Shown: positions 23,572 through 64,000, counted from the first letter of the stretch. The stretch is 64,000 nt of DNA from an uncultured Methanosarcinales archaeon (GCA_964344235.1 CAYFMJ010000001.1:88664-152663); one strand, 5' to 3'. Notes: generated from the letters alone by a model not told the origin. Program-made: numbers and translations.

Positions 23572-23630
23572 GTAGCGTCTTTATAAATGTTATGCTGAAA
23601 AAGGAGTAATTTAAAAGGTTTGTGGTTGAA

Positions 23631-34473: not shown

Positions 34474-34582
34474 TGTATGACACCTCTTTTAATGATGAGT
34501 TGAATGAGTGTTCTGTAGTATATAAACGTTGCGGAAAAATTGAGAGTAAACATTTATAAAATGCGTCAGAAAAAGAGGAAGT

Positions 34583-40647: not shown

Positions 40648-41850
40648 TTATGTGATCTGTAATGATTTTTCCAATAGTTCTCTCAGTTTTATAGTGAGGT
40701 TTTCTTCTAGAGGGCAGGTGATTTCTCGCGTTCTGCCATAACGACCTTTGGAAATTATTTTGGCGTTAATGATACCGAGCATGTCAAGTTCCGCTAGAAT
40801 GTCTGAGATCCGTCTCTGTGTAAGAACGTTGAAACTTGCTTTTTTACAAATAGAAGAGTACACATCATAAATTTCCCCCGTAAAAAAGCGACGTTTCTCG
40901 GGAGCGATAAGAAGTATTGAATAGAGAACTGTCTGAAATTGTTTTGGTTGACCTAAAGCTGCGCTTACGATTTTATCTGACTCTACTTTTTGTTCGGCTT
41001 CGTCAAGATGTTGGATTTCAATATTCGAAGAACCTTTGCGCTCAGCTAATTCTCCGGCAACTCGAAGTAGATCTATCGAGCGACGAACATCACCATGTTC
41101 ACGAGCGGCGTAGGCAGAGCATTTTTCGATGACTCCTACTTGAATAACGCTCTCTTGAAACGCTATAGCAGACCGTTTACGGAGAATATCTTGAATTTGG
41201 AGTGCATTATATGGAGGGAAGATAACTTCTTCCTCTGATAATGAAGATTTAACCCGAGGATCGAGGTTTTCTGCAAAAATGAGGTTGTTGGAAATCCCAA
41301 TAAGACAAATTTGCGAGCGACGAAGCTCCGCGTTGATTCTTGTTAAGTTATAGAGAATCTCATCCCCTATTTTTTTTGTTAGTTGATCGATTTCATCAAG
41401 TACAAGAAGAACAATTTGTTCTTGTTGATCAAGTAATTGGTAGAATGTACTATAGACTTCATCAGTGGGTAAGCCTGTTGAGGGAACTTCTTTACCAAAT
41501 TCTTTGATTAATTGGGCGAGTAAGCGGTATTCAGTATCGGCAACCCTTTTTAATTTGCAGTTGAGGTAGATTGGTTTAAGAGGAACTCTATTTTTTTCTG
41601 CTATCTCTGCCATGGAAGTGAGAATATGTTTCATAGAAAGGGTTTTGCCCGTTCCTGTTTTGCCATAAATGAAAAGGTTAGAAGGGCGTTCCATCCTCAA
41701 AGCTGGAGCAAGAATATTCGCGACCTCCTGAATTTGTTCTTCTCGAAAAAGAACGTTATCAGGCATATAGGATGAAAGAAGAGCTGATTTATCGTTGAAC
41801 AGAGAATCCTTTGCTAGAAAGTTTTCGAAAAAGTTACCTATTTGTACCAT
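40648..41850 (-). CDS. cdc6: Orc1/Cdc6 replication initiator
   Basis: AAA+ Walker A GKTGTGKT. Walker B LVLDEID. C-terminal winged helix. Adjacent to the AT-rich origin. Confidence 0.9.
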   Translation of the reverse strand: MVQIGNFFENFLAKDSLFNDKSALLSSYMPDNVLFREEQIQEVANILAPALRMERPSNLFIYGKTGTGKTLSMKHILTSMAEIAEKNRVPLKPIYLNCKLKRVADTEYRLLAQLIKEFGKEVPSTGLPTDEVYSTFYQLLDQQEQIVLLVLDEIDQLTKKIGDEILYNLTRINAELRRSQICLIGISNNLIFAENLDPRVKSSLSEEEVIFPPYNALQIQDILRKRSAIAFQESVIQVGVIEKCSAYAAREHGDVRRSIDLLRVAGELAERKGSSNIEIQHLDEAEQKVESDKIVSAALGQPKQFQTVLYSILLIAPEKRRFFTGEIYDVYSSICKKASFNVLTQRRISDILAELDMLGIINAKIISKGRYGRTREITCPLEENLTIKLRELLEKSLQIT

Positions 41851-42539
41851 ATAATCCCCTCGTTTTTTGCTAAATGTGGTAAGCGAATACCAGGAACCCC
41901 CTTATTTCCTGTGGAAACTTGTATTCTGCTTTTGTTTTGGGTAACAATTTTTCATGAATGATGTGTAGTGTTACCCAAATGAGTGTATTGGTGTTACCAA
42001 GACACCTTAATTTCTTATGGAAGTAGTTTAAATAGTTATTGCTGGATTAATGAGTAGTAACTAATAGGTGTTCTTGAAAATATTTTTTAGGAAAATTGTT
42101 TTTGAGTTAACGGAATTTGTTGTTGTGTTGTTCTTTTTGCTTTATTTTTTATCATTTATTTGTTATTTTATTGTTATAATTATATATTATATTATTATTT
42201 TCAATATAGAAATAATATAATAATAATAGAGAGCAAAGTGCTTGAATGAAAATTGAATTTTGTTTTTTGTTGTTGTAGTTGAGTTTCCATGTGAAATTAT
42301 TTCATTTATTATTATTATTGTTTAAGGTATGTAATAGTAGTAGTAGGGACGTGTATTATGCAACAAACAAACAGTCTGATTTTTTTCAAAATTACATTTT
42401 CCATAAGAAATGAAGGGGTGCTGCTTACTACACTAGCGTTTTCTACGACTATTTCTCTTTGTAGTGTAGGCAGACGGACTTTTTCTACTGAGTTTAGTAT
42501 ATAAAAACATTTAAATAGTTTTAAGAGGGTATTTCCAGC
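41851..42539. other. Chromosomal replication origin (oriC): mini-ORB boxes flanking an AT-rich DNA unwinding element
   Basis: ORB-like TTCCTGTGGAAAC at 41905-41918. Inverted pair tttcttatggaag (42011-42023) and ttccataagaaa (42397-42410). An 80-85% AT tract with tta/tag triplet runs at 42121-42340. Directly upstream of orc1/cdc6. Confidence 0.65.
42497..42509 (+). promoter_or_regulatory. TATA box (agtatataaaaac) for the 42540 gene
   Basis: About 30 nt upstream of the ATG. Confidence 0.35.
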
Positions 42540-50311: not shown

Positions 50312-50358
50312 CGTTAATAACATTTATAAACAATGGTTGTTTGTTTTTGAGTATACTT

Positions 50359-53300
50359 ATGGTGGAGAAAAAAAGAGGTTTAGTTTTAGTAGTCTTTGTT
50401 GCTTTTCTAGTAGTGATGAGCGTGGGTGTTTTAGGTGTTCCTGACAAGAATACAGATGCTTTTCCAACCATTGGACACCGGGCCGATTTAGGTTATGAAT
50501 ATGATCAGGGTTGTGGTTCTTATGATGTTGACGATTGCCCGCAAGGTGACACTTACAAGCTAGATGAAGATCACAGTACCTGTTCTGCATCAGGAAGCGA
50601 TTTGTCTCCTTTATTCGATGCCTGTAAAATTTTTTTTGTCGATAAAGATGAGGGAAATGATGATGGGGGGTTTGGGCTAGCAGATGAGGGTTATATTCTA
50701 GACTCAGTTGGCTACGAAAAACTTGGCCTTCACAGCTATGAGAAAGTCTGTGGGCAAGAAGGAGACCATGATAATGATGGGGTTGAGGGGCTAAAAGGAG
50801 CGAAGTTTAAAGCAGCTGATAATACTGCATATATTTGTGGAAATAACCTGGGAGAACCAAATAAATGGTATAAATGTACTTCAGAGACGCTTGACACTGT
50901 AACATGGGCAAACGGTGACTTATATAATTGTACTTTCAGTGCTAGTACTGGCTTTCCAACTTGGAAAAACGAAGGAGGGGATACGGACTTTGATACTTTT
51001 GCTCAAGAGGTAGATTGTAAAGATAACCCCCCGAGTGGATCCTGTTTAAACCTGGCACCAGAAGATTGTGCAAGCTCTCCTGAAAATTATGAATGCCCAC
51101 AGTGTATTAACCCTGATGCGCCTGAGGTATGTGGAGATGGCAAAAACAATGATTGCAATGAAGCGACTTCTGATAACTGTCATGATAATCAGGCAGCATG
51201 TGAGGCACTTGACACGGCAGTTGGTTGGAATATTCATGATGAGAAATATGCTTGGCAACAAACGGGAAGCGAGGGAGCCGGTTTCTGTTGTGGATTCAGT
51301 GGAAGTGGTGATGGTAATGTAGGGGAGGTGTCGGAGAGTATTGGTGGCACTAACAAGCTATGTGTGAATAAAGAATATACCACAACAAACGGAGAGATTT
51401 CATCAAGTGAGACCGAAGGAGTTGAGTGTAGTGGATCTGGGTGGTGTTTAGTGAGCGCAGTTGTTGGGTCTAAGTTTCAGATATACACTATTGCAGAACC
51501 GGAAAAAGAACCTTATGATGTTGTTTCCAATGGAGATAATTGGTATGAATGTAGTAGCAGCTACCATGAACCTCTGCTACCGGAAGATACAGGTGTAAGG
51601 ACAAAGGCTAATGCGTTTTACTGCTTCGATGAGGGAAATCATTGGAGTTGGGCTGAATGTCCTTTAGGGGAAGAGGGTGAAGTTGAAAGCGAGAATAGCG
51701 GTACGACTAAAATTAGGCACAAAGGAGATGGATTATATCAGCTGTTTCCAACAAATGATAAAAACCAGTTTGGAGTTTTGGTAGATGCAAAGGATCCAAT
51801 TTACACAAGTTTGTATAGTGAGGATTTCTTGTTAGATTTTAGCGGATATAACCAATTGAATTTTATGATTCAGTTTCTGAGTGAAGTAACCCTGCCAGCT
51901 GATGTTAAGGTGCAAATTTATGGTTCTGATGATGAGCTGAAATGGCAAGGGAATGTTCTTGGCTTTAGTACTAATAATCCTGTGCTAGTTGCAGATACGT
52001 TCTTTCATGTGCAAGTTCCCATTGCTCCGTTTAAAGATGTTGAGAAAGTTCTGATAGAGAGTATTGGCGACTTCAATCATATTGAGGTGAAGAATATTTA
52101 TATGAGTGTCCAGGGAGAGCAACCCTACTTGTGTTCGGCAAAGCAATCAAACCAACCACAACAACCAGCATGGTTGACGAATGCAGATGACATTATTGAA
52201 AATACATTGATTACTGGAGAAAATATTTGTAATGAGTTGTATGGTGGCTGGTTAGGAGATGAAGTAGATGATGTCGAAAGAAGGTGTTGTGGTGATGATG
52301 TGGGGGAATATTATGCTGGCCCAGGAAAGAACGGTTGTTGGAATTCTGAAGTTGTTGTAGGTGGGGGAACAATGATGAATGCTCAAGTTGAGGTTACGTC
52401 ACAATATTCAACAGTTGGAGAGGTTGAGGGTGTAGCAGTGAGAACTGTTACATTTGAGTGGGACTATGCAACGCCTTCAGAGGATCCGGTGACTCTTACG
52501 GATGCTGAGTGTAAGCAATATACAAAAGAGCACAATTGTCCTATTGGCTGTAAGTGGGTAGCTGATTACGGGGTTGGATGTATTGCATTAAATGCAGATG
52601 CGATTATTGCTGCACCAACTTCAGGCGTTAATACGCAAGAAGCTTCAATTGAGATTGAGTATGATGGCTCTACTGTTTCGCCGAAGTCTATCACACTGAA
52701 AGAATTGGGGTTTGAGGTTGAGGGTGTTGAATCAGGAGAGTTATCTATAAACACGGGAATCGAACTCTTCATTGCTGGCTCTTTTCAAGATCACGGTGAT
52801 GAATTCGAGTTTTTCTCTGAGAGCGATTATATTTTAGGAAATAATCAGTTTGAAGTTGGCGATTTTAAAGATATTAGCTTTTCCTTTGTTCATGATGATA
52901 ACTACTATGAAAATAATAAAGAAACGGTGAAGAAGCTTGTTGTTGGTACTCAACCAGAGGAAATGATGAAAACGTATTCGTGCTCTCAAGCGGCGTGTAC
53001 GTTCCCAATTCCGGGGTTTCCACCGTATACTATCAGTAACCCGTTCCCTGATTTATATGAGATATATTTTGTTGATGGACCAGGAATTGATGATAGACAT
53101 CCAATTGATAAGAATGGAAAGACGTTTGATCAGGTAGGGAATGTTGAAGTCACAAAGGTTGCACAGCAAGTTGTGCTTGTTAATAGTGATACAGAGCATC
53201 AATTTTATGGTTGTGCGCCTTCGCAAACGTTAATTAACAGTATTCCTACAGAAGATCAAGATAGTTTCACTGCATTAAGCCATTGCGCGGTGAAAGCAGA

Positions 53301-55209
53301 TAGGTTTTGTTCATTTAGTTACACGGAGGATGGCGTGACAACAATTAATTCGTGGAGTGACGATGCTTTAGAACATGTTGGGTATGAAGCGTTAGAAGAT
53401 GATCCGAAGGAGTTGGAGGGTTTGCATAATTTACAATTGAAAACACTGCCTACTAACGAACAAGAGATAATTCCACCTACGGATAGAAATTGGTCGACAA
53501 CTGCTTTCCCAGGACAGAATATTTTACCAAATGCGTTGTTTGAAATTGATAGTCAAGGAAGTGTGAAAAGAATTGCCCATTGGGTTGTTATTGATAGTGA
53601 AGGGTTAGAAGTTTCGAATGTTAATGCGAAACATATCCCTTTTGATGATCCAGAGAGGGTAGAGTTGGGAGGTGGAGAGATTCTAAGATCTTCTAGGATA
53701 GCACTGCCGCAAGGTGTTGATGAAACAATGGCGTTATCGCATGAGGGAGAAGGGGTGAAAGAGAGTGTTATTTTAGTTGATGGTGAAGGGGATATTGATA
53801 TTGTAAATGATGGAGAGTTCTCTACAGACGGTGCAGGGTATGTGGTAATTGAATTTACAGGACCTGGAAGTGTGGCACAACCGATCTTACAATTTGTCGA
53901 TGAAGATTTTGAACCTGTTGCATTCCATTATGATGGGGAAAAACAAAAAGTGCAAGAAAATTTTCAGGAACGTGCAGGAGTAGCATGTTGCCCACAGGAT
54001 TGGTGCTGGAATGGGTATACATGTGCAGAGCCGATGAGTGAAAATACCTTCGCAGCAGAGTTACTGCCAGATAATAGAACGTATAGGTGTGTAGGGGGAG
54101 AGTGGACAGAGCTGCCTGTAAAGAGAGATTGGAACGTGGCAGGATTTGGGTTTTGCGAACAAAAGGATCAGTGTTTCGTGACAAGTTCGTTAATGGGTGG
54201 CGATAATACTGCTGAGGCGATTGACTTTTACAATGGGAATTATCCAACCTGTGTTGACGATGGAGAGTTTATTTTCGACCATTACTGTGATGCCGGTAAT
54301 TGGACTTCACGAACGAAGTTTATTGCATCGGAGTTATTAGATGCGATTGGTGAGACAGATGAATATGCACTGTATTGTGATTCGTTTGAGAAAGTTCTTC
54401 CACAATTAGATGGGCATGATTTATTGTTTAGTGGGGAGTTGGTAGCGGATGCAGAAGTGGTTGGTTCAATTAGTGACCAGTTAGGGGGAGTGGAACCAGA
54501 ACAGACGTTTATACAGGTGTGCTTTGAGAATGTGAATAATAATGAACGAGGTAGAGAGTTAGTACCAACAGACCAGAATAAATGTGTGAATAATGTCTGT
54601 GTGTTGCAGTATAAACAGGGTGGAAAGAATAAAGTAGCGTTTGCAGCGTCTTTGAATCCGGCAGAGAACTCTTTCTTGACAGCGTTTGATATTCCAGCAG
54701 GAGAGGTAGCAACGTTATGTGGTGGTGAAGGGTTTAATGATTGTAATGTTGACCTAGCAGGGGACTTTTGGTATTCAGAAGAGTTAGATGCGTTTGTGTA
54801 TGGGAAAGATGGAATAGATTTAGATACAGGGTTCTTTGGAGGAATTCTGGATTTCTTTAGTGGTTTATTTGGTAATGGTATTGCGGAAGAGAATACGGAT
54901 TTTATTGCACAAGCGGAGAATTATCGAGATGTATATGTGTTGCAGCATGAGAATAAATTGGTTCGAGCGATTAAAGAGCAGCAAGGTCAGAAAGAGATTC
55001 TAGTAGCGGAGTTTGAAGGGTTTCAATCGCCAGTGTGTGAGTACGTGGAGAATGTTGGGTTGCCTGAGAAGCCAGCGTTTGAAGGGGCAACGAGCGTGGA
55101 TTTGGTGTGTAGTAGTGAGGAAGGCGTGCAGAAGTTTGAATTAGTTGATGATACGGATGTGTTCTGGGATCGGTTTGCGGGAAGGTTGAGGCCGCAAGAG
55201 AGTAGTTAG
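50359..55209 (+). CDS. Giant (about 1616 aa) Cys-rich secreted/surface protein
   Basis: The track ORF is 50290..55209. The likely true start is the ATG at 50359, followed by a signal anchor LVLVVFVAFLVVMSVGVLG. Acidic, with many Cys including CCG motifs (GFCCGFSG, RRCCGDD, VACCPQDWCW). No C-terminal anchor. Confidence 0.6.
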   Translation: MVEKKRGLVLVVFVAFLVVMSVGVLGVPDKNTDAFPTIGHRADLGYEYDQGCGSYDVDDCPQGDTYKLDEDHSTCSASGSDLSPLFDACKIFFVDKDEGNDDGGFGLADEGYILDSVGYEKLGLHSYEKVCGQEGDHDNDGVEGLKGAKFKAADNTAYICGNNLGEPNKWYKCTSETLDTVTWANGDLYNCTFSASTGFPTWKNEGGDTDFDTFAQEVDCKDNPPSGSCLNLAPEDCASSPENYECPQCINPDAPEVCGDGKNNDCNEATSDNCHDNQAACEALDTAVGWNIHDEKYAWQQTGSEGAGFCCGFSGSGDGNVGEVSESIGGTNKLCVNKEYTTTNGEISSSETEGVECSGSGWCLVSAVVGSKFQIYTIAEPEKEPYDVVSNGDNWYECSSSYHEPLLPEDTGVRTKANAFYCFDEGNHWSWAECPLGEEGEVESENSGTTKIRHKGDGLYQLFPTNDKNQFGVLVDAKDPIYTSLYSEDFLLDFSGYNQLNFMIQFLSEVTLPADVKVQIYGSDDELKWQGNVLGFSTNNPVLVADTFFHVQVPIAPFKDVEKVLIESIGDFNHIEVKNIYMSVQGEQPYLCSAKQSNQPQQPAWLTNADDIIENTLITGENICNELYGGWLGDEVDDVERRCCGDDVGEYYAGPGKNGCWNSEVVVGGGTMMNAQVEVTSQYSTVGEVEGVAVRTVTFEWDYATPSEDPVTLTDAECKQYTKEHNCPIGCKWVADYGVGCIALNADAIIAAPTSGVNTQEASIEIEYDGSTVSPKSITLKELGFEVEGVESGELSINTGIELFIAGSFQDHGDEFEFFSESDYILGNNQFEVGDFKDISFSFVHDDNYYENNKETVKKLVVGTQPEEMMKTYSCSQAACTFPIPGFPPYTISNPFPDLYEIYFVDGPGIDDRHPIDKNGKTFDQVGNVEVTKVAQQVVLVNSDTEHQFYGCAPSQTLINSIPTEDQDSFTALSHCAVKADRFCSFSYTEDGVTTINSWSDDALEHVGYEALEDDPKELEGLHNLQLKTLPTNEQEIIPPTDRNWSTTAFPGQNILPNALFEIDSQGSVKRIAHWVVIDSEGLEVSNVNAKHIPFDDPERVELGGGEILRSSRIALPQGVDETMALSHEGEGVKESVILVDGEGDIDIVNDGEFSTDGAGYVVIEFTGPGSVAQPILQFVDEDFEPVAFHYDGEKQKVQENFQERAGVACCPQDWCWNGYTCAEPMSENTFAAELLPDNRTYRCVGGEWTELPVKRDWNVAGFGFCEQKDQCFVTSSLMGGDNTAEAIDFYNGNYPTCVDDGEFIFDHYCDAGNWTSRTKFIASELLDAIGETDEYALYCDSFEKVLPQLDGHDLLFSGELVADAEVVGSISDQLGGVEPEQTFIQVCFENVNNNERGRELVPTDQNKCVNNVCVLQYKQGGKNKVAFAASLNPAENSFLTAFDIPAGEVATLCGGEGFNDCNVDLAGDFWYSEELDAFVYGKDGIDLDTGFFGGILDFFSGLFGNGIAEENTDFIAQAENYRDVYVLQHENKLVRAIKEQQGQKEILVAEFEGFQSPVCEYVENVGLPEKPAFEGATSVDLVCSSEEGVQKFELVDDTDVFWDRFAGRLRPQESS

Positions 55210-55210
55210 A

Positions 55211-55301
55211 ATATGTCCCGCTTGCACGGCACGATTACGGTGACTTCTTGAATCTTTTTTATCTACGCCACCGTGTGCCTCCATTGGCAAAGCGGACATA
55301 T
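55211..55301. ncRNA. Structured RNA-like element, copy 2 of 2
   Basis: Helices atatgtcc(c)gctt/aagcggacatat, ggcac/gtgcc and acggtg/caccgt. Conserved GCAC, GATT and CCATTGGC. Lies 50 nt upstream of the 855-aa gene. Confidence 0.4.
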
Positions 55302-55352
55302 CCTATCACGAAAGTAATTAATTTTATAAGATAGAAGTGATTAGGTGTTTCT

Positions 55353-57920
55353 ATGAAAAGAGGGCAGATAACTGTGTTTATTATAGTTGGTATTATTGTG
55401 TTATTTGTCTTTCTGTTGCTGATTCAGTTAAGTAGTTCATTTGAAAAAGAACAGTTGGAACAGCAGCAAGAGGGGATTCTTACCAAAGCATTCTATAAAG
55501 AGGGGTTACGGTTGTTTGTAGAGGATTGCTTAGAAGATGAATTATCAAACGGTTTAGTGTTATTGGGCAAGCAAGGAAGATTATGGGATGAAGGTGGTGG
55601 AGTATTGGGGTTTGAGAATGGCGTAACAGGTGTGCAATTCGGTGAAGATCAAGTGTTTTATGGAATTACACGAGAAGATCATGAGTTACCTGAAGCATAT
55701 CCTTGTGATGAACATACAGGGGAGGAGCCAGCGTTTTGTCAATATGGTTATCCCAATATCTCGGTAGGCTTTGGAGAGAAGTCGTTATTTACAACAGAAC
55801 ATTTACAGGAAGATTTAACACGTTATGTTTCCATTAAGACTGTTGAGTGTGTTGATTCTTTTGTGAAAGAAAATGTTTCGCAAAGCGCAGTATTGGTGAC
55901 GGAGAAACCAGAGGTAAGCGTTACATTATTGCCACAGGGAATTCCTGTTCAGGTTGATTATCCAATTCGCTTTTCGGTTGGAGGGGAGGAGTTTTTTTCA
56001 TTAGCATCGTTTGATTTCTTTTACCCTTCAGAGTTTGGTAGATTTGTGCAGAAAGCAGCAGTGTTTCCGATGAAGTGGGATCAGCTGTTTGTCGATTTTG
56101 ATTACAGTGAAGAAGTGTTTATTGATGAGAAATTTACGTACGGGTCTGTAAAGGAGATAGGGGAATGTGAGGGGGTAGTGGGTGAGTACTTCTGCGAAAG
56201 AGCATTGTCGCCATATACTGGAGGAATTCCTGTGCAAATGAAGAAAGATGAGGTTGCGGGTGATACCGTGTTTACGTTTTCGTATCCGTGGAGTAGCGTG
56301 ATTGCGTCTTCTGTTGATGTTATTGATGTACCACAAGATAGCATGTATCGCTTTAGAATTGCACGGCAAAACAGGCCGCCAGCATTGGAGTATGAAGAGA
56401 GGTTAAGTTGTATTAGTGAAGAGTATGATTATTTAGTAATTAAAGGAAGTCAGAATTATGATGAAGTAGAGATTAGTTTAGATGCAATGGACCCAGATGA
56501 AGATGAAGAGTTAGTGTATAGTTTTGAATCTTCATTGAGTGGTGTTGTGGAAGGAAATACGTTTACTGTTTCTGGCGAGGCTTTGCCCGATGAAACAGGA
56601 GTGTATGATGTTGTAGGAAGTGTTGAGGACGAACATGGTTTGGTGGATTCGCAGAGAATTAGAGTGTTGGTGGATAGAGATGTGGGGGCAGAGTTGTCAC
56701 TACACATGCCGTATGATTTAGGAGAAAGAGGCTTGTATGAAGAGATTTATAGTCCTGAAAATGGATATATTGTGTCGGTGGAAGATCCGATATTTTTTGA
56801 CGTGCAAATGCCGTTGAAGAGTGCAGGAGCGACGTTTGAAGAGACGACATTGACGTACACAGGGGATGAAGAATTTGTATTTACGCTGTCTGAGTTAAGT
56901 GACTTTGGTGGAGGTGGGTGTTTCAGTTTTCCTGGGTTTTTGCTTGGAAAATGTGGTGATGAGGAAGGTTTAGGATTTTATGGCGAGTATGTTGTAAGTG
57001 ATGCTGGCACGGTTGATGATACTTCAAAAATATGGAATTGGAAAACGTGGTTGAATGACCCTAGCAATGTGAAACCGAAAACAATGCCAACAAACTTCTT
57101 TAAAGAGGTTAAGGGGGGGGAAGATTTAATCTTAGATGTTGATGTGAGTTATTGTAGTGAAGAGTTGGATATCCCTGAAATAACGATTCCCCTGAATGTG
57201 GTTGAATGTTTACCACATAAGAATGCAGATCATCCATTTCCGTACCCATACCATACTGTTAAAGTTGATCCAGAAACGGGTGAGAGAAGTGAAGAGGAGA
57301 TTAATCCATTTTTAGCAGAGCATGCCTGTTGTGGGAATTTCGAGTATAAGAAACCAGAGGAAGTTTGTTATGAAAGTCTGCCAGAGCAAGGCTGTTTTGG
57401 TTTAGCATCTGATGATTTGGTATTATTATCGGATGGAAATACTGATTTAGAAGATCTTGCAGGGTATATTGTGGAAGAGAGAGTAGAGAAAGCATATTGT
57501 ACCGGAGACCGAGGGAATGTATGTGGTGAAGGAAACTTTGAGAGTGTTATTGTCGATGGGGGAAAATGTGGAAATAGAGAAGCGTATGGGGGCACGTGTA
57601 ATAAGGTGCATGGTTATTGTGAGGACCTGGACCCGTGGAGTATTAATGAGGAGGAGAAAGCATGGTGTAATGGGCCAGTTGGTTGTGGGACAACAACGAG
57701 TGTTTGTACAACGTCTATTGTGTATACTGGCTCTGTGCCAAATGTTTTTGCGGGTGGCAACGTTGAAAATACTATTCAAGCAAATAATCAAGATTTTCAA
57801 TGTGGTGGATGCACGTTTGAAGGCCAACAATGTTTCTTGTTGTTCAGTGGAGTGCCTGCAACGTGTAATAAACTTGGAGCGGGCGTGTTTGAATGTGGTG
57901 GCGGAGGTAAAGGGGGATGA
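55353..57920 (+). CDS. Large (855 aa) N-terminally anchored Cys-rich surface protein with a cadherin-like domain
   Basis: N-terminal TM. A cadherin-like beta-sandwich signature (DPDEDEELVYSF...GVYDVVGSVEDEHGLVDSQRIRVLVD). A Cys-rich C-terminal region with ACCGNFEY. Confidence 0.6.
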   Translation: MKRGQITVFIIVGIIVLFVFLLLIQLSSSFEKEQLEQQQEGILTKAFYKEGLRLFVEDCLEDELSNGLVLLGKQGRLWDEGGGVLGFENGVTGVQFGEDQVFYGITREDHELPEAYPCDEHTGEEPAFCQYGYPNISVGFGEKSLFTTEHLQEDLTRYVSIKTVECVDSFVKENVSQSAVLVTEKPEVSVTLLPQGIPVQVDYPIRFSVGGEEFFSLASFDFFYPSEFGRFVQKAAVFPMKWDQLFVDFDYSEEVFIDEKFTYGSVKEIGECEGVVGEYFCERALSPYTGGIPVQMKKDEVAGDTVFTFSYPWSSVIASSVDVIDVPQDSMYRFRIARQNRPPALEYEERLSCISEEYDYLVIKGSQNYDEVEISLDAMDPDEDEELVYSFESSLSGVVEGNTFTVSGEALPDETGVYDVVGSVEDEHGLVDSQRIRVLVDRDVGAELSLHMPYDLGERGLYEEIYSPENGYIVSVEDPIFFDVQMPLKSAGATFEETTLTYTGDEEFVFTLSELSDFGGGGCFSFPGFLLGKCGDEEGLGFYGEYVVSDAGTVDDTSKIWNWKTWLNDPSNVKPKTMPTNFFKEVKGGEDLILDVDVSYCSEELDIPEITIPLNVVECLPHKNADHPFPYPYHTVKVDPETGERSEEEINPFLAEHACCGNFEYKKPEEVCYESLPEQGCFGLASDDLVLLSDGNTDLEDLAGYIVEERVEKAYCTGDRGNVCGEGNFESVIVDGGKCGNREAYGGTCNKVHGYCEDLDPWSINEEEKAWCNGPVGCGTTTSVCTTSIVYTGSVPNVFAGGNVENTIQANNQDFQCGGCTFEGQQCFLLFSGVPATCNKLGAGVFECGGGGKGG

Positions 57921-58987
57921 GAGCAGCCCTTATTCTCTTTTTGGTTTTTCTTTTCGTTCCTTTTGTGCTAGCAGATTCGGGGTGTTTTGTGTTTCAGGAT
58001 AGTGCACTGTATTGTGTTGAAGTTTCAGAGGAAGAAGCGGAGCAGGAATGTGGCTTCTTTGATAATTGTGATATTGTGGAGGTATTTTTAGAAGGAAGTA
58101 GTTGTGATAAGCATAGTGTGCCGGAATGTGAAACAGTGCTGTGTAAAAGTACTTGTTCGGAAGAGTTTTTAGGCACGTGTCTGGGTGGGAGAGTTCCAAT
58201 CGGAGAAGAAGGGCAGTGGTGTTCACCTGGTTGTTGTTCTTTCGAGGATAATTGTGGGTTTGAGCAGAGTGGGTGGTTATGTAATGTGAACGCACAGAAT
58301 AAGGGTGTTACTGAGTTTTCCTATAGTACTTTGTTGGGGGAAGCAGGTTGTCAATCGTTATGCCAACAGGATGATGTGACGAAGAATAGTTTATTGGGGC
58401 CAGTGAAGTTTAAAACGGAATCAATTAAGCCACTTGTTCCGCCGCCTGTAGCGGTTGCTGTGGGTGAAGGAAGTAGTGATGCTGGGGAGGATATTAATAC
58501 TGGTTCTTCGTTGCTTGGTTCAGTGCTGTTTTGGGTTTTGCTATTGTTGATTGGGTTGTTTGTAGCGTATTATTTTCACTCAAAGCGGTTTGTGAATTGG
58601 AAAGATCTCTTTGATTGGATTTTAGGGAAGGGGCAGGAAGAGCGAGAGGTTGTTGTGAAGGAAAAGGGTAAAGATGTGCCTGTGCGGGTTTCCGTACCGG
58701 AACATTCAGAGCGTGTTAAACGATTGCATGCGAAAAGAAAACATAAAGTTCACAAGCAGGAACGGGAAGAGTTTTTAGCAGAACATGGGCTAAGTGTTGG
58801 AGATGAATCCGTACAAAAATTACAACGATTTGTAGAGAAACATGTTGCTAGTAGGCCATTATTTCATAATTTGGATCATTTAGTTGAAAAACGGCAGGAA
58901 CATCTCGCAAAAACTGTGAAAAAGCCGGTGCGTAAGGCAAGGAAAAAAGATATTTTTGAAGAGTTGCGGAAGATGGCAAGAAAATAG
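57917..58987 (+). CDS. Cys-rich secreted protein with a C-terminal TM anchor and a Lys-rich cytoplasmic tail
   Basis: Signal peptide. An about 100-aa Cys-rich module that is shared with the N-terminus of the next giant gene. TM (VLFWVLLLLIGLFVAYYF). A basic tail. ATGA start/stop overlap with the upstream gene. Confidence 0.6.
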   Translation: MRAALILFLVFLFVPFVLADSGCFVFQDSALYCVEVSEEEAEQECGFFDNCDIVEVFLEGSSCDKHSVPECETVLCKSTCSEEFLGTCLGGRVPIGEEGQWCSPGCCSFEDNCGFEQSGWLCNVNAQNKGVTEFSYSTLLGEAGCQSLCQQDDVTKNSLLGPVKFKTESIKPLVPPPVAVAVGEGSSDAGEDINTGSSLLGSVLFWVLLLLIGLFVAYYFHSKRFVNWKDLFDWILGKGQEEREVVVKEKGKDVPVRVSVPEHSERVKRLHAKRKHKVHKQEREEFLAEHGLSVGDESVQKLQRFVEKHVASRPLFHNLDHLVEKRQEHLAKTVKKPVRKARKKDIFEELRKMARK

Positions 58988-59053
58988 TGCGTTTCTTCCA
59001 CGGTAGGCAGCTACAAACATTTATAAACGGCAACTGTTTCTTGTAGACGTAGA

Positions 59054-62000
59054 TATGATGTGTAAAAAAAGGGGTTTCATATTAGTAGTTTTAGCTTTGT
59101 TTTTAGTAGTTCTTTCTAGTTTCGTTTTTGCAGAATCTTCAGGATGCTATGTTTATGCTTCGGGAAGTTCTGATTTATATTGTGTAGAGAATGTGTTAGA
59201 AAGTGCAGCAACAGCTGATTGTAATCTATTTGGGGATTGTGATATTAATGAAGCGTTCTTGGAGAATACAGCGTGTTCTTCCGTAGCAGCGTGTGAGGTT
59301 GTAACGTGTAATGTTGATTGTCAGGATAGGACGTTAGGGAAATGCCAGGAATTGGGAGAAGAATTATACGGGGTTCCAGGAGAAGCGGTACCGTTTGAGG
59401 AGTATGATGCAATCTGTAGCCCCGGATGTTGTGTTTTAACATCTCCAGGCGGTGATCAGACGTGCCAACCGAATTTACCGTTACAATGTGATGATTTGGC
59501 AACAAAAAAGGGGTTTGATATGAGTTTCCTGCCAGGGGTTGTAGGTGCTTCCTGTATTAACAGTTGTGGAGCAGATGTGGAGAAAGGAAATTTAGTGGTT
59601 ACAGTTGTTAATGATGAGGGTGATGGTGTTGTGGCGAGTGTTTCGCTGGTTGGTTTTACTGAAATTGCAGAATCAAAAGGAAACGGCGTATATGAATTTA
59701 GTGAATTAACTCCATCAACGTATGTAGTGAAAGTTTCAGCTGCAGGATTTGGTAGTGAAAGTGTCTCTGTGATTGTGGAGGGGGAGGTTACGGAAGTTAG
59801 TGTGGTGTTAAGTCCAGTTGAGGGTGTTGGTTCTATTTCTGGAGTTGTGAATGGAGAAGGAGAGCCGTTGAGTGGGGCAACGGTCTTTGTGCAGGGAGGA
59901 GGAATTGAGGAAATTGCAACGACTTTAGGAAATGGTGCGTTTAGTTTTGATAACTTGGAAGCAGGAAGTTATGTGGTGACGGCAAGTAAAGTTGGTTATA
60001 AGAGTTTGTCACAGCCAGTGTTGCTGCAGGAAGGTGCTGAGAAAGTATTAACGTTTGATTTAGAGGAAACGTCATTAGAAGGAGTTACCGTTACAGCGTT
60101 TGTAGAAGGGAATGCACAACCTGGGGTTTCAGTGTTTGTGGATGGGAAGTTTAAAGGGAAAACAAAATTTCAAACGGATGGTAGTTTATTCATTCCGTTT
60201 TTGGAAGAGGGAGAGCATACGTTCTTTGCAACATTTCAAGGAGTGTATGAATCTGGGGAAGAAGTGTTTGAAGTGGAAGGTGGAGAGGAGCAAGAATTTG
60301 AGCTATTTCTGAAGAAAACGTTTGGTGAATGTAGTTTTGGACAGCCAAATGACCATAAAAATGTTGAAGTGTTTGCGTTGGAACATGTGTTGGGGAAGGA
60401 ACAAGTAGGGTTGGTGTGGGAGACACCGTGTCCAGAAGTGGTAAGTTATTTGGTTGAGAAACAGGAAGTTGGTAGTGAAGCGGTTGAACAGATGTCGTTT
60501 TCTATTGGCCAGACAGAGTATATTGATGCAGATGTGGAATGGGGAACATCATATGTGTACAGAATAAAAGCGTATTATGTTGACGGCTCTTCTCCGCGTT
60601 ATTCAGAGCAGTGGAATGAACAGACCATTGTGATGGGAAGTGCGGAGTGTGAGAATGGGTTCTTTGAGACAGGTGCAGGGCATTCGTTTTGTCAAGCCGG
60701 TAGTGAGAATAAGAAGACGGTTTTTACGTGTAGTGCGGAGAATCAAGTTATTCCGCAGCAGCAATGTGCAGATGCTCCGGGAGAGTTGTTTTATTGCAGT
60801 CCAATTATAGAGTTCACAGCGGGTTGTAAGAGCGATAGTGCATGTTCCTTAGCAGGAACACCGTTTGGGTTGTTTAGCACAGAAGAAAGTTGTTATGGAG
60901 TAGAGGCGAGTGCGGCAGTTAGCGGAGGGGCAGCGAATTATTGTTATTACGATGCAGCTGCGGTTGAGGTTAGTACTGTTGTTAACCAGTGTGTAAGTTG
61001 TGCAAATGTGGAAAGCTGTTTCGATTATCAAAGCGAAGATGCGTGTGGCGTTAACTCCTGCTTAAGTGAAGTGTGTAAGTGGGTTGAGGGAGCGTCTTCT
61101 CCAGAGTTAGTTGATTACAGTTTATTTTATTCCAGTTATAATGAGGAATCGCTGTTTGTTGGAGAGGAAACGGGGGCGGGTTATTGTGTGCCGGAGGAGA
61201 AATATGAAGAAACAGATGCCTGTGGTTTATGTAGCGCAGGTTCAACGTTATTTGAAAATTATTACTGTACTGCTGATGTCTGTTCCAATTTAGGGGCGTG
61301 TTATTCTGAGAATAGTTTGAGTGAGTGTAATGAGTGTCAGGAAGTTCCAACAGGAAGTGTTAGTTGTGAGACCTACGTAACGGAGCAGGAATGTAACGGT
61401 GTAGGTGGCAGTAGTAAGGATGCATATGAACGAATCACGCGATCTGCAGATAGTTGCAGTTGGGGTGCATGTGTCTGGGAAGGATTAGAGAATGGAGCAG
61501 GGCAATGTGTGAAAGATGGTGACGCTGATGGGGCAAATGATTGTTTAACAATCCCGCAAGGGGGAAATGCGGCAGCTTGTAGAGCTGACGTAACACCACC
61601 AAGTACTTCACTGAGTGCAGCGGAAACGGCAATTGTTTCAATTGGAAAACCAGAGTTAACGTTTGTGGGAGATGACTCTTCAGAGAAGTTGTTACAGCAA
61701 AATCAATTAGGGGAGTTGTGGTATTGTGTTACGCCGCTGGGAGTGGACACCTGTACCAGTGAGCATTTTGAAGTTGTTCCGTATTCTGGTAATTTAATTA
61801 CAGAAGAGTTGGTAATTGATGTTACTGATTCAGATTTCTTTGCAGATGGTGTTGCGGGTGAGACATATTTACTAAAGTTCTTTTCGAAAGATATTTACTC
61901 AAACCAGGAAGATGTACAGGAAGTGTATATTTACGCAGATTTAGTGTTACCGTCGTTTACGATTGGTGATGAAATTACAATAAATGGTGATGTGGCAGAT

Positions 62001-64000
62001 CTAACGGTGTTCTTAGAGGATCTGAATGAACCAGTAAGTTGTACATTTACATTGGAGCCGATTATTGGGTTTGAAAGTGTGAAGACGGTTACAGTTCCAC
62101 GAGATGCACAGGTGAAGTCAGCGACGTTTACTGGTTTACAGGGAGTAAGTTATGACTTAAGCGTTGAATGTGAAGATGATTTTGCAAATGTTCATAGTGA
62201 AAGTAAGAAGTATGTGTTTAATTATGATCAATCCATTTCTTTAATTAATCCGCCGTTCTTAGGAGCGATTGCCCAGAATGCTGTGCAGTTTGAAGTGTCT
62301 ACCGTCGTTGCGTCACAATGTGAGTTGTATGAAACCGCAACCAATACGTTGTTGGGCGTATTTGCAACGAATGAAGAAGGGAAAAGTCATTTAACAGAAC
62401 CAGTTGGTGGATTATTTGAGGGAGAGTATGCAGCGGAACATAAAGTTCGATGTGTTGAGGATTTATCGGGAAAGGAAGCGGAAGCGTATTTCCATTTCTT
62501 TGTTGATTTTACACCCCCACAAACATTGATTACCTTACAGGAAGGAAGTCATGTTGCTTCTCCTACAGAGTATGGGTGGGAGGTGTCGTTTATTGACAGT
62601 GCTGATGTGAGCTTTGTGTGTGATGCCGGAAATGGTGGATTTGCCTGTGATGAGACGCTGTATTGTTTGGGAGAAGGATGCGAATTAGCATCTAGCCCAG
62701 GGTATGTTACCTATGAAGCGCCGTTTACTGTTACTGAGACAACGGAAATTTGTTATTACTCAACTGATATTGGCAATACACCATTTCCGTTTGTGACTTG
62801 TGGAGATATTTTAGTTGAGGGAGCTGGTGTGACGTTAGAGAAACCAACGCCATACATGTTTGTTGGAGAAGTATGGGGTGTGAGTAATGAACCGGTGTTT
62901 GAGTGGCAATTCTTTACCAAAGTGCCAACACAGGAATGTGCGTTTGACTTTACTGAGAATATTGATGTTGAAACGATTGAACCGTTTAAGAAATTGCAAA
63001 ATGTTGGGGGGAAATATCTGTTTGAAGGATTCCCTGGCGAGGTGATTAGTGCGTATGGAAGTGCTGGTGGCGTGAAGACGTTATATGTGCAGTGTGCGAA
63101 TGCGTTTGAATTAGTAGGAAGTCCACAGAAGATGCATTTGGAATATGATCCTACAGCGCCTTCGATTTTGAGTGTGGGGGCGGAGCCAAATCCTGTGCTT
63201 GAGGGAATTACAGTATTGTTAAGTGTGGAAACGGATGATAAGTCAGTGTGTAAGTACAGCGACGTTTCTAACGGTGGTGGTAGCAAGGAATATCAAACCA
63301 TGGAATTTTCATTTCCGGGAGAGGAAGAAGGAGTGATGTATATTGGTCATGAAGATATTTTCTGGTTAAGTGTAACCCAGCCACAGCAGGAATTTACGAT
63401 TGCAGTGCAATGTATGAACGGGGCGGGAGATTTATCAGAGGTTGAGGAGATAGGGTTCTTTGTGGATTATACTGCTTTGGGAAGTATCTTGTCGTTGTTA
63501 CCTGATGGATATACAGCTGCGACGAATGTTACGCTGCAAGCAGAGACGAGTAAAACAGGTTGGTGTGAATATAAAGTTGATGAAGAGTATATTGTGTTTG
63601 CTGAAACAACTGGAAAGACACACTCTCAACCAATTGGCGCTGCTGATGAAGGGGAGTATATTTTCCCGGTACAATGTACAATGGGTGACCATACAGTGCC
63701 TGGCGTGATTGATTTTGTGGTTGATAGAACCGCTCCAGTGATCTCGGAAGTGGAGGATTATACATATAGTTGTGGTGCTGATGAGTTAAGTGTGATGGTG
63801 TATTCCGATGAAGAAAATATTAGTCAGTACTTCTATGATGTGTTTGAGAAAGGAAGCAAGTTTGTAGGAACAAATGGCTCTTCCGTGGCAAGTGGTTCGT
63901 TGTTAAGTGATACAGTAAGTGGAGAGCTACCATTAAAGATTCCAACTGATGATTTAGAAGAGAATAAAAGTTATTTTGTGAAAGTGGGTGCGATTGACGC
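59054..64000 (+). CDS. Giant Cys-rich secreted protein (over 1640 aa, 3' end beyond the window) with tandem CarboxypepD_reg-like beta-sandwich domains
   Basis: Signal peptide MMCKKRGFILVVLALFLVVLSSFVFA. The N-terminal Cys module is paralogous to the 57917 gene (SGCYVYASGSSDLYCVEN...CDINEAFLE). Repeated G.V.D..G.P..GA.V.....T...G.Y.F..L..G.Y.V.A.K.GY domains at about 59580-60300. No complete ORF appears in the track for this span, consistent with one ORF running off the window end. Confidence 0.6.

What the first reader, a model, noticed from the sequence alone, without database searches (positions are those of the whole stretch)
50359..64000. Cluster of giant cysteine-rich surface proteins with a shared N-terminal Cys module and unusual CC motifs
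Four consecutive plus-strand genes of about 1616, 855, 356 and over 1640 aa encode acidic, Cys-rich secreted or anchored proteins. The 356-aa protein and the last giant share a paralogous about 100-aa Cys module (SGC[YF]V...LYCVE...CDI.E.FLE...C.V.C). The 855 and 356 genes overlap by ATGA. Recognisable pieces are one cadherin-like domain and tandem CarboxypepD_reg-like beta-sandwiches. The remainder, including the vicinal-Cys motifs CCG, ACCGNFEY and ACCPQDWCW, has no obvious family. The 356-aa protein has a TM and a Lys-rich cytoplasmic tail. In small-genome archaea, such genes are candidates for S-layer or host and partner adhesion proteins.
Basis: partly seen in the sequence, partly recalled or inferred. 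Interest (0 to 1): 0.6.

Follow-up and report, generated by a model that had tools for sequence, protein, structure and literature searches.

The report
Woesearchaeal giant cysteine-rich surface-protein and pilin cluster
Four intact genes for very large, acidic, disulfide-rich surface proteins are the front end of a roughly 25-kb gene cluster, conserved across the uncultivated Woesearchaeota archaea, that also encodes about 14 pilin-like proteins and probably builds a cell-surface attachment structure of unknown kind.

Summary
Four co-oriented genes (1616, 855, 356 and 2061 aa; the last runs 1.2 kb past the window) encode acidic proteins with 3.3-4.5% Cys, against 1.1% in other long ORFs. All are intact in independent assemblies.

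The order P1-P2-P3-P4 plus downstream genes is syntenic in about 80 Woesearchaeota/Nanoarchaeota species genomes, next to RNase P p30. The 855-aa protein and at least 11 of about 14 downstream proteins (five families checked across relatives) carry class III (prepilin-type) signals, [KR][GA]|Q plus a hydrophobic helix, as in Methanococcus Epd pilins.

Best reading: a conserved, lineage-specific surface or adhesion apparatus built from pilin-like subunits and giant disulfide-rich proteins. No assembly ATPase, platform or peptidase lies nearby, so the filament mechanism is inferred, not shown.

The parts
50319..50331 (+). Promoter-like BRE/TATA 13-mer AACATTTATAAAC, 28 nt upstream of the P1 ATG
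   Evidence: Exact 13-mer found only twice in the window, here and before P4; 0.3 matches (exact or with one mismatch) expected by chance. Promoter function is inferred.
50359..55209 (+). P1: 1616-aa secreted, acidic, Cys-rich giant protein (56 Cys). It has an N-terminal KKRG + hydrophobic signal and no C-terminal TM.
   Evidence: ORF. 3.47% Cys, pI 4.1. Only one hydrophobic segment, at the N-terminus. No Pfam, NCBIfam, PHROG or PDB-sequence match. P1-like ORFs in 62 of 81 related loci, 37 of them >= 1400 aa, always just upstream of P2.
51286..51291 (+). P1 vicinal Cys pair C310-C311 (FCCG)
   Evidence: 97% conserved in 37 orthologues.
52285..52290 (+). P1 vicinal Cys pair C643-C644 (RRCCGDD)
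   Evidence: 100% conserved in 37 orthologues.
53971..54378 (+). P1 most conserved Cys-rich region (aa 1205-1340), containing ACCPQDWCWNG (C1210-C1211)
   Evidence: All Cys 100% conserved. It lies within the highest-conservation stretch of the P1 alignment.
55353..57920 (+). P2: 855-aa pilin-like protein with a large Cys-rich ectodomain
   Evidence: ORF. At least 152 homologue clusters, none with a Pfam domain. AF2 model pLDDT 87.7, pTM 0.71.
55353..55574 (+). P2 class III (prepilin-type) signal MKRG|QITVFIIVGIIVLFVF and long N-terminal helix (aa 2-74)
   Evidence: Q5, T7, F9, I11 and G13 are >= 90% conserved. G or A sits at -1 wherever a [KR][GA] site was located, and Q at +1 in 54 of those 56 orthologues. 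Predicted helix 2-74. Motif as in Epd pilins (PMC4371748).
56430..56942 (+). P2 tandem Ig/cadherin-like beta-sandwich domains (about aa 360-530) with the conserved acidic motif DPDEDE
57090..57917 (+). P2 C-terminal Cys-rich domain (about aa 580-855) with the invariant vicinal pair C659-C660 (HACCGNFEY, nt 57327-57332)
   Evidence: Invariant Cys columns C601, C619, C659, C660, C672, C716 and C724. No PDB fold match above the Ig-like hits.
57917..58987 (+). P3: 356-aa type I membrane protein, a 'mini-P4'. It overlaps the P2 stop by ATGA.
   Evidence: ORF and overlap. Present as a 310-456 aa protein between P2 and P4 in about 40 related loci.
57974..58381 (+). P3 N-terminal Cys module (aa 20-155)
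   Evidence: 43% identity to the P4 N-terminus, E 2e-16. Aligns over all 16 conserved Cys.
58505..58984 (+). P3 TM helix (aa 197-222) and basic cytoplasmic tail (aa 223-356), homologous to the P4 C-terminus
   Evidence: Hydropathy. A profile of the P4 C-terminus hits P3 residues 215-356 at E 1.8e-4, and other P3-like proteins down to 1.5e-10.
59016..59028 (+). Second copy of the promoter-like 13-mer AACATTTATAAAC, 27 nt upstream of the P4 ATG
59055..64000 (+). P4: giant type I membrane protein. 1648 codons lie in the window; it is 2061 aa in full, ending 1240 nt beyond the window.
   Evidence: Translation. Full ORF on the source contig, with TM 1888-1913 and a 148-aa basic tail. 21 full-length orthologues of 2006-2176 aa at 37-47% identity.
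59133..59582 (+). P4 N-terminal Cys module (aa 27-176; 16 conserved Cys, likely 8 disulfides)
59586..60344 (+). P4: three CarboxypepD_reg-like beta-sandwich repeats (aa 178-430)
   Evidence: PF13620, 84 bits. Self-hhalign 178-343 against 259-424, E 2.4e-15.
60399..60611 (+). P4 fn3-like domain (aa 449-519), below the Pfam cut-off
   Evidence: PF00041 22.6 bits against a cut-off of 25. FN3con E 0.023.
60648..61580 (+). P4 central Cys-rich region (aa 532-842, about 31 Cys), no family match
   Evidence: Cys positions. No Pfam or PDB hit.
62151..63830 (+). P4 array of roughly 105-aa repeated beta-sandwich-type domains (aa 1033-1592)
   Evidence: Self-hhalign hits 1342-1506/1448-1592 (E 8e-6) and 1033-1156/1447-1562 (E 5e-5). 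The domain type is inferred from the D-x-T-x-P boundary motifs seen in the sequence.

Best explanation
P1-P4 are the large extracellular components of a roughly 25-kb co-oriented gene cluster specific to the Woesearchaeota (DPANN) lineage. The cluster runs from window position 50.3 kb to about 10 kb beyond the window end.

Shown:
- The four genes are intact, conserved in order and length across about 80 species genomes, and encode exported, acidic proteins with invariant Cys frameworks.
- P2 and at least 11 of the roughly 14 downstream proteins begin with a conserved class III (prepilin-type) signal, [KR][GA]|Q followed by a roughly 20-aa hydrophobic helix.
- P3 and P4 are paralogous type I membrane proteins. 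They share an N-terminal 150-aa, 16-Cys module of unmatched predicted fold and a conserved basic cytoplasmic tail of 130-150 aa.

Inferred mechanism:
- The pilin-like proteins are cut by an EppA/PibD-type prepilin peptidase. A type IV filament machinery encoded elsewhere assembles them into a surface filament or short stalk.
- The small, strongly conserved Q09 and Q10 proteins are the likely main subunits.
- P2, with its 73-residue N-terminal helix, cadherin/Ig-like domains and Cys-rich head, would be a large minor or tip pilin with an adhesive function.
- P4 and its minimal paralogue P3 are membrane-anchored, disulfide-stabilised partners. Their common module would bind a common extracellular ligand, perhaps unanchored P1 or the filament. 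Their common tail would couple the structure to a cytoplasmic partner.
- Overall the apparatus most likely mediates attachment to a host, partner cell or surface.
For: Reality and conservation:
- Identical ORFs occur in independent assemblies.
- P4 has 21 full-length orthologues.
- P2 has at least 152 homologue clusters and 92 relatives among the representative genomes of 185,579 bacterial and archaeal species, all labelled Woesearchaeota, Nanoarchaeota or archaeon, plus mislabelled TPA MAGs.
- The order p30-P1-P2-(P3)-P4-Q05-Q06-Q07-Q08-Q09-Q10 is found in essentially every locus long enough to show it.

Export and disulfides:
- N-terminal signals and TM segments.
- Three- to four-fold Cys enrichment.
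- Cys columns 97-100% conserved.
- An exported DsbA-like oxidoreductase is encoded in the same window.

Class III signals:
- A FlaFind-like scan marks P1, P2, P3, P4 and 13 downstream ORFs within 25 kb. P3 is flagged only through its ordinary Sec signal, with no G. Four ORFs are marked in the other 50 kb, none with the [KR]G|Q form.
- Other secreted proteins of the window lack the motif.
- Across orthologues the -1 residue is only G or A, and +1 is Q in P2, Q06, Q07, Q08 and Q09.
- Methanococcus Epd pilins have KGQ| sites, and EppA requires +1 Gln (PMC4371748).
- Archaeal TFF 'system 1' with many pilins is reported in methanogens and DPANN (bioRxiv 10.64898/2026.04.22.720090).

Structure:
- The P2 model has high confidence, with helix 2-74 followed by beta-rich domains.
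- It shows adhesin-like tandem beta-sandwiches.

P3/P4 paralogy:
- Module shared; tail shared.
- The module is restricted to two architectures.

Operon-like packing:
- 4-nt overlaps or gaps under 10 nt between most genes.
Against: - No TFF ATPase, platform protein or prepilin peptidase was found in the 64-kb window, the 11 kb downstream or the 10 kb upstream.
- A Walker-A grep of the 80 related loci found no secretion ATPase next to the cluster.
- No Pfam or NCBIfam pilin model and no solved pilin matches P2 or the small proteins.
- In archaea, class III signals also occur on non-filament proteins such as sugar-binding proteins (PMC4371748), so cleavage would not prove a filament.
- P1 and P4 also carry KKRG before their hydrophobic segment, yet they look like ordinary Sec signals with an AxA-type site. 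The K-R-G motif alone is therefore not diagnostic.
- Nothing here measures expression, localisation or binding.
Confidence: 0.5

Rival explanations
1. Cell-envelope (S-layer or envelope scaffold) cluster. P4 would be the membrane-anchored envelope protein of Woesearchaeota. P1 would be a lattice or canopy partner. The N-terminally anchored small proteins would be envelope-associated accessory proteins, with no pilus-like filament.
For: - P4 has the classic archaeal surface-glycoprotein layout: Sec signal, huge beta-sandwich-rich ectodomain, C-terminal TM.
- It appears as one syntenic copy per locus, with strictly conserved length and sequence, as expected for a structural housekeeping protein.
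- P1 and P4 each have their own strong-looking BRE/TATA element.
- No TFF machinery lies nearby.
Against: - The strict [GA]|Q conservation in five checked protein families points to prepilin-peptidase processing, which S-layer proteins do not need.
- A conserved 150-aa cytoplasmic tail shared with a mini-paralogue is not an S-layer feature.
- An invariant Cys framework at 3-4% Cys is not what established knowledge describes for archaeal S-layer proteins (not tested here).
Confidence: 0.22
2. Uncleaved signal-anchor proteins. The K/R-G + hydrophobic N-termini would be plain type II membrane anchors. The cluster would then encode a membrane-tethered extracellular complex, for example for nutrient or DNA capture or cell-cell contact, independent of any type IV filament machinery or peptidase.
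For: - No pilin family, pilin fold or TFF gene was detected.
- P1 and P4 carry KKRG in what look like ordinary signals.
Against: - Only G or A is tolerated at one position, next to an almost invariant Gln (A1). That pattern is hard to explain for a simple anchor and matches the EppA substrate rule (PMC4371748).
- Other exported proteins in this genome do not have the motif.
Confidence: 0.15
3. One reading: lineage-variable giant adhesins for a host or partner, each acting on its own, whose clustering has no functional meaning.
For: - Adhesin-like tandem beta-sandwich domains.
- Acidic, Ca-binding-like motifs (DPDEDE in P2; DxDxDG in P4).
Against: - Order, length and Cys framework are conserved over about 80 species at only 30-47% identity. 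That is the signature of a conserved machine, not of diversifying adhesins.
- Overlapping stop and start codons point to co-translation.
Confidence: 0.08
4. Artefact, pseudogene array or integrated virus or mobile element.
For: None beyond the lack of annotation.
Against: - Intact in independent assemblies.
- The chromosomal neighbours are the same in relatives: RNase P p30 upstream in 34 loci, ThiS/SAMP in three and RPA downstream in two.
- No relatives in IMG/VR and no PHROG hits.
- GC is like the rest of the window.
Confidence: 0.01

Closest known systems
Methanococcus maripaludis Epd pili / archaeal type IV filament 'system 1' (PMC4371748; bioRxiv 10.64898/2026.04.22.720090)
   Same: - Class III signals with a [KR]G|Q processing site.
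- Many different pilin-like genes in one co-oriented cluster.
- Adhesin-domain proteins among them.
- System 1 is reported in DPANN.
   Different: - The Epd cluster contains its own ATPase, two platform genes and the EppA peptidase; none is in or near this cluster.
- There is no sequence or profile similarity to Epd pilins.
- The Epd system has nothing like the 1616- and 2061-aa Cys-rich giants or the 16-Cys module.
Bacterial minor-pilin/tip-adhesin complexes and modular pilins (PilY1 with FimU-PilVWXE; Streptococcus sanguinis PilB, PMC8179133)
   Same: - A pilin N-terminus grafted onto a large adhesive module (P2).
- Several minor pilin-like proteins encoded together with a large non-pilin protein.
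   Different: - Different domain of life and no homology detected.
- P2's globular parts match only generic Ig/cadherin-like folds.
- The comparison is an analogy based on established knowledge, not on a test made here.
Giant Ca-binding beta-sandwich adhesins (Salmonella SiiE, Marinomonas ice-binding adhesin, Staphylococcus SraP cadherin-like modules)
   Same: - Best structural matches of P2's central domains.
- Very large, acidic, tandem beta-sandwich architecture in both P2 and P4.
   Different: - Those adhesins are Cys-poor, type I-secreted or sortase-anchored bacterial proteins built from many near-identical repeats.
- Here the domains are few and heterogeneous, the proteins are Cys-rich, and anchoring is by a C-terminal TM or a pilin-like N-terminus.
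Archaeal S-layer glycoproteins with a C-terminal membrane anchor (e.g. Haloferax SLG, Staphylothermus tetrabrachion; from established knowledge)
   Same: P4 layout: signal peptide, large ectodomain, C-terminal TM, short basic stretch.
   Different: - P4 has a conserved 148-aa cytoplasmic domain shared with a mini-paralogue.
- It has an invariant Cys framework.
- It sits in a pilin-like gene cluster.
SPEARE giant surface proteins of Nanohaloarchaeota (recalled from the literature, not tested here)
   Same: Giant exported proteins of a DPANN symbiont, proposed to mediate host interaction.
   Different: As I recall them, SPEARE proteins are larger and carry protease, adhesion and restriction-endonuclease domains. 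None of these was detected here, and similarity was not tested directly.

Membership tests
Archaeal type IV pilin-like (class III signal peptide) proteins - applies to P2 and the downstream small proteins | Basic residue(s) followed by G or A at -1 of a processing site within the first ~15 residues | tested here: met
   KRG|Q in P2. Across orthologues only G or A at -1 and Q at +1, also in Q06-Q09.
Archaeal type IV pilin-like (class III signal peptide) proteins - applies to P2 and the downstream small proteins | Uninterrupted hydrophobic stretch of ~20 residues directly after the site, forming the start of a long N-terminal alpha-helix | tested here: met
   Mean Kyte-Doolittle hydropathy 3.6 over 16 residues. 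AF2 helix spans residues 2-74.
Archaeal type IV pilin-like (class III signal peptide) proteins - applies to P2 and the downstream small proteins | Match to a curated pilin/class III signal model, or fold match to a solved pilin | tested here: not met
Archaeal type IV pilin-like (class III signal peptide) proteins - applies to P2 and the downstream small proteins | Cleavage by a PibD/FlaK/EppA-type prepilin peptidase | not testable with these tools
   Needs proteomics or biochemistry. No A24 peptidase gene in the about 85 kb examined.
Type IV filament system (complete) | Secretion ATPase (PilB/FlaI) and platform protein (PilC/FlaJ) in the genome, usually near pilin genes | tested here: inconclusive
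   None within the window +/- 10 kb or in the 80 related loci. The rest of the genome could not be searched.
Cadherin domain (Pfam PF00028 and relatives) - P2 aa ~360-445 | Significant match to a cadherin profile | tested here: not met
   No Pfam hit at E <= 0.1. The family profile against PDB cadherin-23 gives only E 0.02-0.8.
Cadherin domain (Pfam PF00028 and relatives) - P2 aa ~360-445 | Cadherin/Ig-like beta-sandwich fold with acidic Ca-binding motifs at domain borders | tested here: inconclusive
   Fold matches to SraP cadherin-like modules, SiiE and protocadherins. Conserved D380, D382 and E383. The canonical DxNDN/DxD set was not checked, and generic Ig domains score as well.
CarboxypepD_reg-like domain (PF13620) - P4 aa 178-430 | Score above the Pfam gathering threshold | tested here: met
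   84 bits against 32.3, two stretches. A third repeat by self-comparison.
Fibronectin type III (PF00041) - P4 aa 449-519 | Score above the Pfam gathering threshold | tested here: not met
   22.6 bits against a cut-off of 25. FN3con E 0.023. Likely a divergent fn3-like sandwich.
Any described family for the 16-Cys N-terminal module | Sequence-profile or fold match to a curated family or solved structure | tested here: not met
Archaeal S-layer protein | Forms the 2-D surface lattice; highly abundant | not testable with these tools
   Only the generic layout (signal, ectodomain, C-terminal TM) can be seen.

The most novel reading that the evidence does not exclude
The cluster encodes a previously undescribed surface organelle found across the Woesearchaeota lineage. 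In this reading, about 14 prepilin-type subunits build a filament or stalk carrying giant, disulfide-locked proteins. P1 and P2 would sit at the outside. P4 and P3 would form a transmembrane base whose new-fold 8-disulfide module and conserved cytoplasmic tail connect outside to inside. This would be the long-sought host-attachment or intercellular-contact apparatus of these uncultivated DPANN archaea, and it could be recognised from genome sequence alone.
Probability: 0.3. Interest if true: 0.8.

Novelty: new variant of a known kind. Interest (0 to 1): 0.62.

Why it matters
Woesearchaeota are among the most widespread uncultivated DPANN archaea. They are thought to live attached to other cells, but no attachment structure has been tied to specific genes.

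This study defines a concrete candidate that can be recognised from sequence:
- a syntenic cluster of about 18 genes, present in most genomes of the lineage that could be examined;
- three protein families and one 150-aa domain with no curated family, the domain also with no matching solved fold;
- an unexpected link to prepilin-type processing.

It gives direct targets for metaproteomics, cryo-ET labelling and structural work. The clear sequence signatures (the 16-Cys module and the P2 N-terminal domain) can be used to track the system in metagenomes. If the filament reading is right, it would extend type IV filament diversity to assemblies that carry 200-kDa disulfide-rich proteins.

Tried and rejected
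- Word-based homologue search with P3 found only itself. The module family appeared only with a profile against the representative library.
- Pfam, NCBIfam and PHROGs on P1-P3 and on six downstream pilin-like proteins gave nothing usable.
- PDB sequence searches with P1, P4 and two small pilin-like proteins gave nothing.
- Profile-profile comparison of the P1, P2 and P4 families found no shared domain apart from similar P1 and P4 signal peptides. The idea that the CCG...EY...C[WY] motifs mark a shared module was therefore dropped.
A 23-sequence permitted alignment was used instead. Only the best two of five models were confident (92 and 88, against 66-70), so the 'new fold' statement rests on a prediction.
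- Viral origin was tested and rejected.
- Looked for TFF ATPase, platform or peptidase in the window, its flanks and related loci; none found.
- tRNA and Rfam scans of the window were empty.
- The source genome itself is not among the GTDB representatives, so the rest of its genome could not be read.

Full report
**What is there**

The window is archaeal. It encodes PolD DP1 and DP2, Cdc6, MCM and RNase P p30, and GC is about 0.40 throughout.

From 50.3 kb to the window end there are four plus-strand ORFs:
- P1, 50359-55209, 1616 aa
- P2, 55353-57920, 855 aa
- P3, 57917-58987, 356 aa, overlapping P2 by ATGA
- P4, from 59055

The exact P3 sequence is found on an ENA metagenome contig of 121,556 bp (ERZ930065), on other assemblies and on a 412-kb NCBI contig. 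On that contig P4 is 2061 aa and ends in a TM helix and a basic tail. A second assembly carries the identical P4. Orthologues of the same length are common. The genes are therefore not pseudogenes.

The proteins contain 3.3-4.5% Cys, against 1.1% in the other long ORFs of the window. P1, P2 and P4 have pI about 4.1.

**The shared module**

P3 and P4 are 43% identical over 106 aa (E 2e-16). Alignment with 21 P4 orthologues, and with P3- and P4-like proteins from related loci, extends the module to about 150 aa directly after the signal peptide. It has 15 invariant Cys and one near-invariant Cys, including the SPGCC pair.

A profile of the module searched against 1.84 billion representative proteins finds only 192 proteins. 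Of the best 150:
- 84 are P3-type (280-600 aa), and 74 of these have a TM followed by a tail of about 137 aa with 25% K+R
- 37 are P4-type (>= 1700 aa)
- 28 are fragments and one is of intermediate length (720 aa)

The module is always single and N-terminal.

A profile of the P4 C-terminus (TM plus tail) hits P3 residues 215-356 at E 1.8e-4, and other P3-like proteins down to 1.5e-10. P3 is thus a minimal paralogue of P4: module, linker, TM and tail.

**The other pieces**

- P4 contains three CarboxypepD_reg-like repeats (PF13620, 84 bits).
- It has a sub-threshold fn3-like domain.
- It has a central region with about 31 Cys.
- It has an array of repeats of about 105 aa (aa 1033-1592).
- It has DxDxDG motifs before the TM.
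- P1 has no match in Pfam, NCBIfam, PHROGs or PDB sequences.
- In 37 P1 orthologues, nearly all Cys from residue 274 onward are conserved, including the three CC pairs at 97-100%.
- The P1, P2 and P4 families share no domain by profile-profile comparison. Only the P1 and P4 signal peptides resemble each other.

P2 begins MKRG|QITVFIIVGIIVLFVF. Its family has at least 152 clusters at 90% identity, and none carries a Pfam domain. In a 102-sequence alignment, Q5, T7, F9, I11 and G13 are at least 90% conserved.

The AlphaFold2 model (pLDDT 87.7, pTM 0.71) has one helix spanning residues 2-74, followed by beta-rich domains. Structural neighbours are only tandem Ig/cadherin-like adhesin domains:
- SiiE and protocadherins by Foldseek, E 3e-6 to 1e-4

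The family profile touches cadherin-23 repeats only weakly (E 0.02).

Downstream of P4 the source contig carries 14 more co-oriented genes before an RPA-like gene. They are tightly packed or overlapping, and none has a Pfam hit. A FlaFind-like scan flags 13 of them, plus P1-P4, for a small residue followed by a strongly hydrophobic stretch. At least 11 of the 13 have a clear [KR]G start (KKGQ, RNGQ, RKGQ, TRGM, KQGS and others). P3 is flagged only through its ordinary Sec signal, with no G. Four ORFs are flagged in the other 50 kb of the window, and none has the [KR]G|Q form. Other exported proteins of the window have ordinary Sec or lipoprotein signals without the motif.

Across orthologues, the residue before the hydrophobic helix is only G or A. 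The next residue is Gln in the P2, Q06, Q07, Q08 and Q09 families. This is the class III (prepilin) signal. The G|Q form is the one described for Methanococcus maripaludis Epd pilins, whose peptidase EppA requires +1 Gln (PMC4371748). A 2026 preprint reports that the corresponding archaeal type IV filament 'system 1', rich in pilins, also occurs in DPANN (10.64898/2026.04.22.720090).

**Conservation**

Scanning one genome per GTDB species with the P2 alignment found 92 relatives. The 80 loci kept are all from Woesearchaeota, Nanoarchaeota, Nanoarchaeia or 'archaeon' MAGs. Several TPA assemblies are labelled 'uncultured Methanosarcinales', but they have the same synteny.

BLASTP of the window's proteins against the ORFs of these loci gives the order p30-P1-P2-(P3)-P4-Q05-Q06-Q07-Q08-Q09-Q10 wherever the contig is long enough. 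Sizes are conserved: P1 about 1500-1865 aa, P2 about 800-1090, P4 2006-2247. P3 with the module is present in about 40 loci. Three loci examined in full show the whole cluster of about 18 genes between RNase P p30 and an RPA-like gene.

There are no relatives in IMG/VR and no PHROG matches. This is a chromosomal core cluster of the lineage, not a mobile element and not a set of fast-evolving adhesins.

**How it most likely works**

Shown:
- The proteins are exported, Cys-rich and conserved.
- P2 and most of the downstream proteins carry class III-type N-termini.
- P3 and P4 are paralogous type I membrane proteins.

Inferred:
- The Cys frameworks are disulfides. An exported DsbA-like protein is encoded at 13462-14280.
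- The pilin-like proteins are processed by a prepilin peptidase and assembled, by machinery encoded elsewhere, into a filament or stalk.
- The small and highly conserved Q09 and Q10 are the likely bulk subunits. They are preceded by a 221-nt gap that could hold a promoter.
- P2 is a large minor or tip pilin with an adhesive head.
- P4 and P3 use their common module to hold a common extracellular partner, possibly the unanchored P1, and their common tail to contact a cytoplasmic partner.

I put about 0.5 on this apparatus model.

The main weakness is that no secretion ATPase, platform or A24 peptidase lies in the about 85 kb examined or beside the cluster in relatives. No pilin family or fold match exists either. 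Archaeal pilin genes are often unlinked from their machinery, and class III signals also serve non-filament proteins (PMC4371748). The data therefore fit an envelope or S-layer scaffold (about 0.22) or a membrane-tethered complex with uncleaved anchors (about 0.15) less well, but they do not exclude them.

**Novelty**

The component types are known: class III signal proteins, beta-sandwich adhesin domains and C-terminally anchored surface proteins. The following were not found described in the curated libraries or in my literature searches:
- the P1, P2 and P3/P4 families
- the 16-Cys module with no matching fold
- the conserved cytoplasmic tail
- the combination of giant disulfide-rich proteins with about 14 pilin-like genes in one lineage-wide cluster

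I rate it a new variant of a known kind, with interest 0.62.

Noticed in passing
beyond the window end: L004 16183-24840 (= window coordinates about 65237-73894): Fourteen further co-oriented genes (87-372 aa), none with a Pfam hit. The FlaFind-like scan flags 13 of them, and at least 11 start with a clear class III-type [KR]G + hydrophobic helix. They end at an RPA-like OB-fold gene. Q09 (116 aa, KKGQ|GLSLNVIIVAALALIVLVVL) and Q10 look like candidate major pilins.
   Followed up: partly
window 13462-14280 (+), 15195-15545 (-), 15602-16129 (-), 5918-6370 (+): A small 'extracytoplasmic redox/metal' neighbourhood. It holds a membrane-anchored DsbA-like thioredoxin (PF01323, 77 bits), a thioredoxin-like lipoprotein with WCGAC, a cupredoxin lipoprotein and a DUF411 lipoprotein. 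The DsbA-like protein fits the need to oxidise the many Cys of P1-P4.
   Followed up: partly
window 50319-50331 and 59016-59028 (+); one-mismatch copies at 34549-34561 (+) and 23579-23591 (-): The 13-mer AACATTTATAAAC occurs exactly twice, 27-28 nt upstream of the P1 and P4 start codons. A similar TTTTATAAG lies about 25 nt before the P2 ATG. These look like archaeal BRE/TATA promoters with very short or no leaders.
   Followed up: partly
window 50359-50436 and 59055-59132: The signal peptides of the P1 and P4 families are similar to each other (M..KKRG[LF].LVVL...; hhalign probability 90%, E 1.5e-6), although the mature proteins share nothing. It may be a shared targeting signal, and it is ambiguous between a Sec and a class III signal.
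   Followed up: partly
window 41851-42539 (intergenic, next to cdc6 at 40648-41850): Likely replication origin. There is a GC dip (0.347 in the 42-44 kb bin), an AT-rich core at 42185-42318, and a flanking 37-nt inverted repeat (41986-42022 / 42399-42435, 76% complementary). It lies beside Cdc6, with PolD on the far side of cdc6 and MCM 2.2 kb away.
   Followed up: partly
window 31712-34213 (+); also L087 6764-8605 (-): Another large exported protein: Lamin-tail domain + CHB_HEX_C/Fn3-associated + CotH kinase domain, with a C-terminal TM. A second LTD protein lies about 3 kb upstream of the window. Neither was examined further.
   Followed up: no
window 2357-3112 (+): Free-standing LAGLIDADG-type homing endonuclease ORF (Pfam LAGLIDADG_3 in the precomputed annotation of L087), between an alpha/beta hydrolase gene and an RNase J-like gene.
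   Followed up: no
L006 54-1772 and the JGI 3300072015 locus: In some relatives the P2 equivalent or a neighbouring upstream protein carries repeated 'Cu-binding_MopE' (PF11617) Cys motifs (C..DNDCDG.TDE). P1 of the window has one similar-looking stretch (PEVCGDGKNNDCNE, aa about 255-268) that does not reach Pfam significance.
   Followed up: no
L007, L009-L013 and other loci: Many TPA co-assembly MAGs carrying the cluster are titled 'uncultured Methanosarcinales archaeon'. They have the same Woesearchaeota-type synteny, so the record titles are probably placeholder or wrong taxonomy.
   Followed up: no
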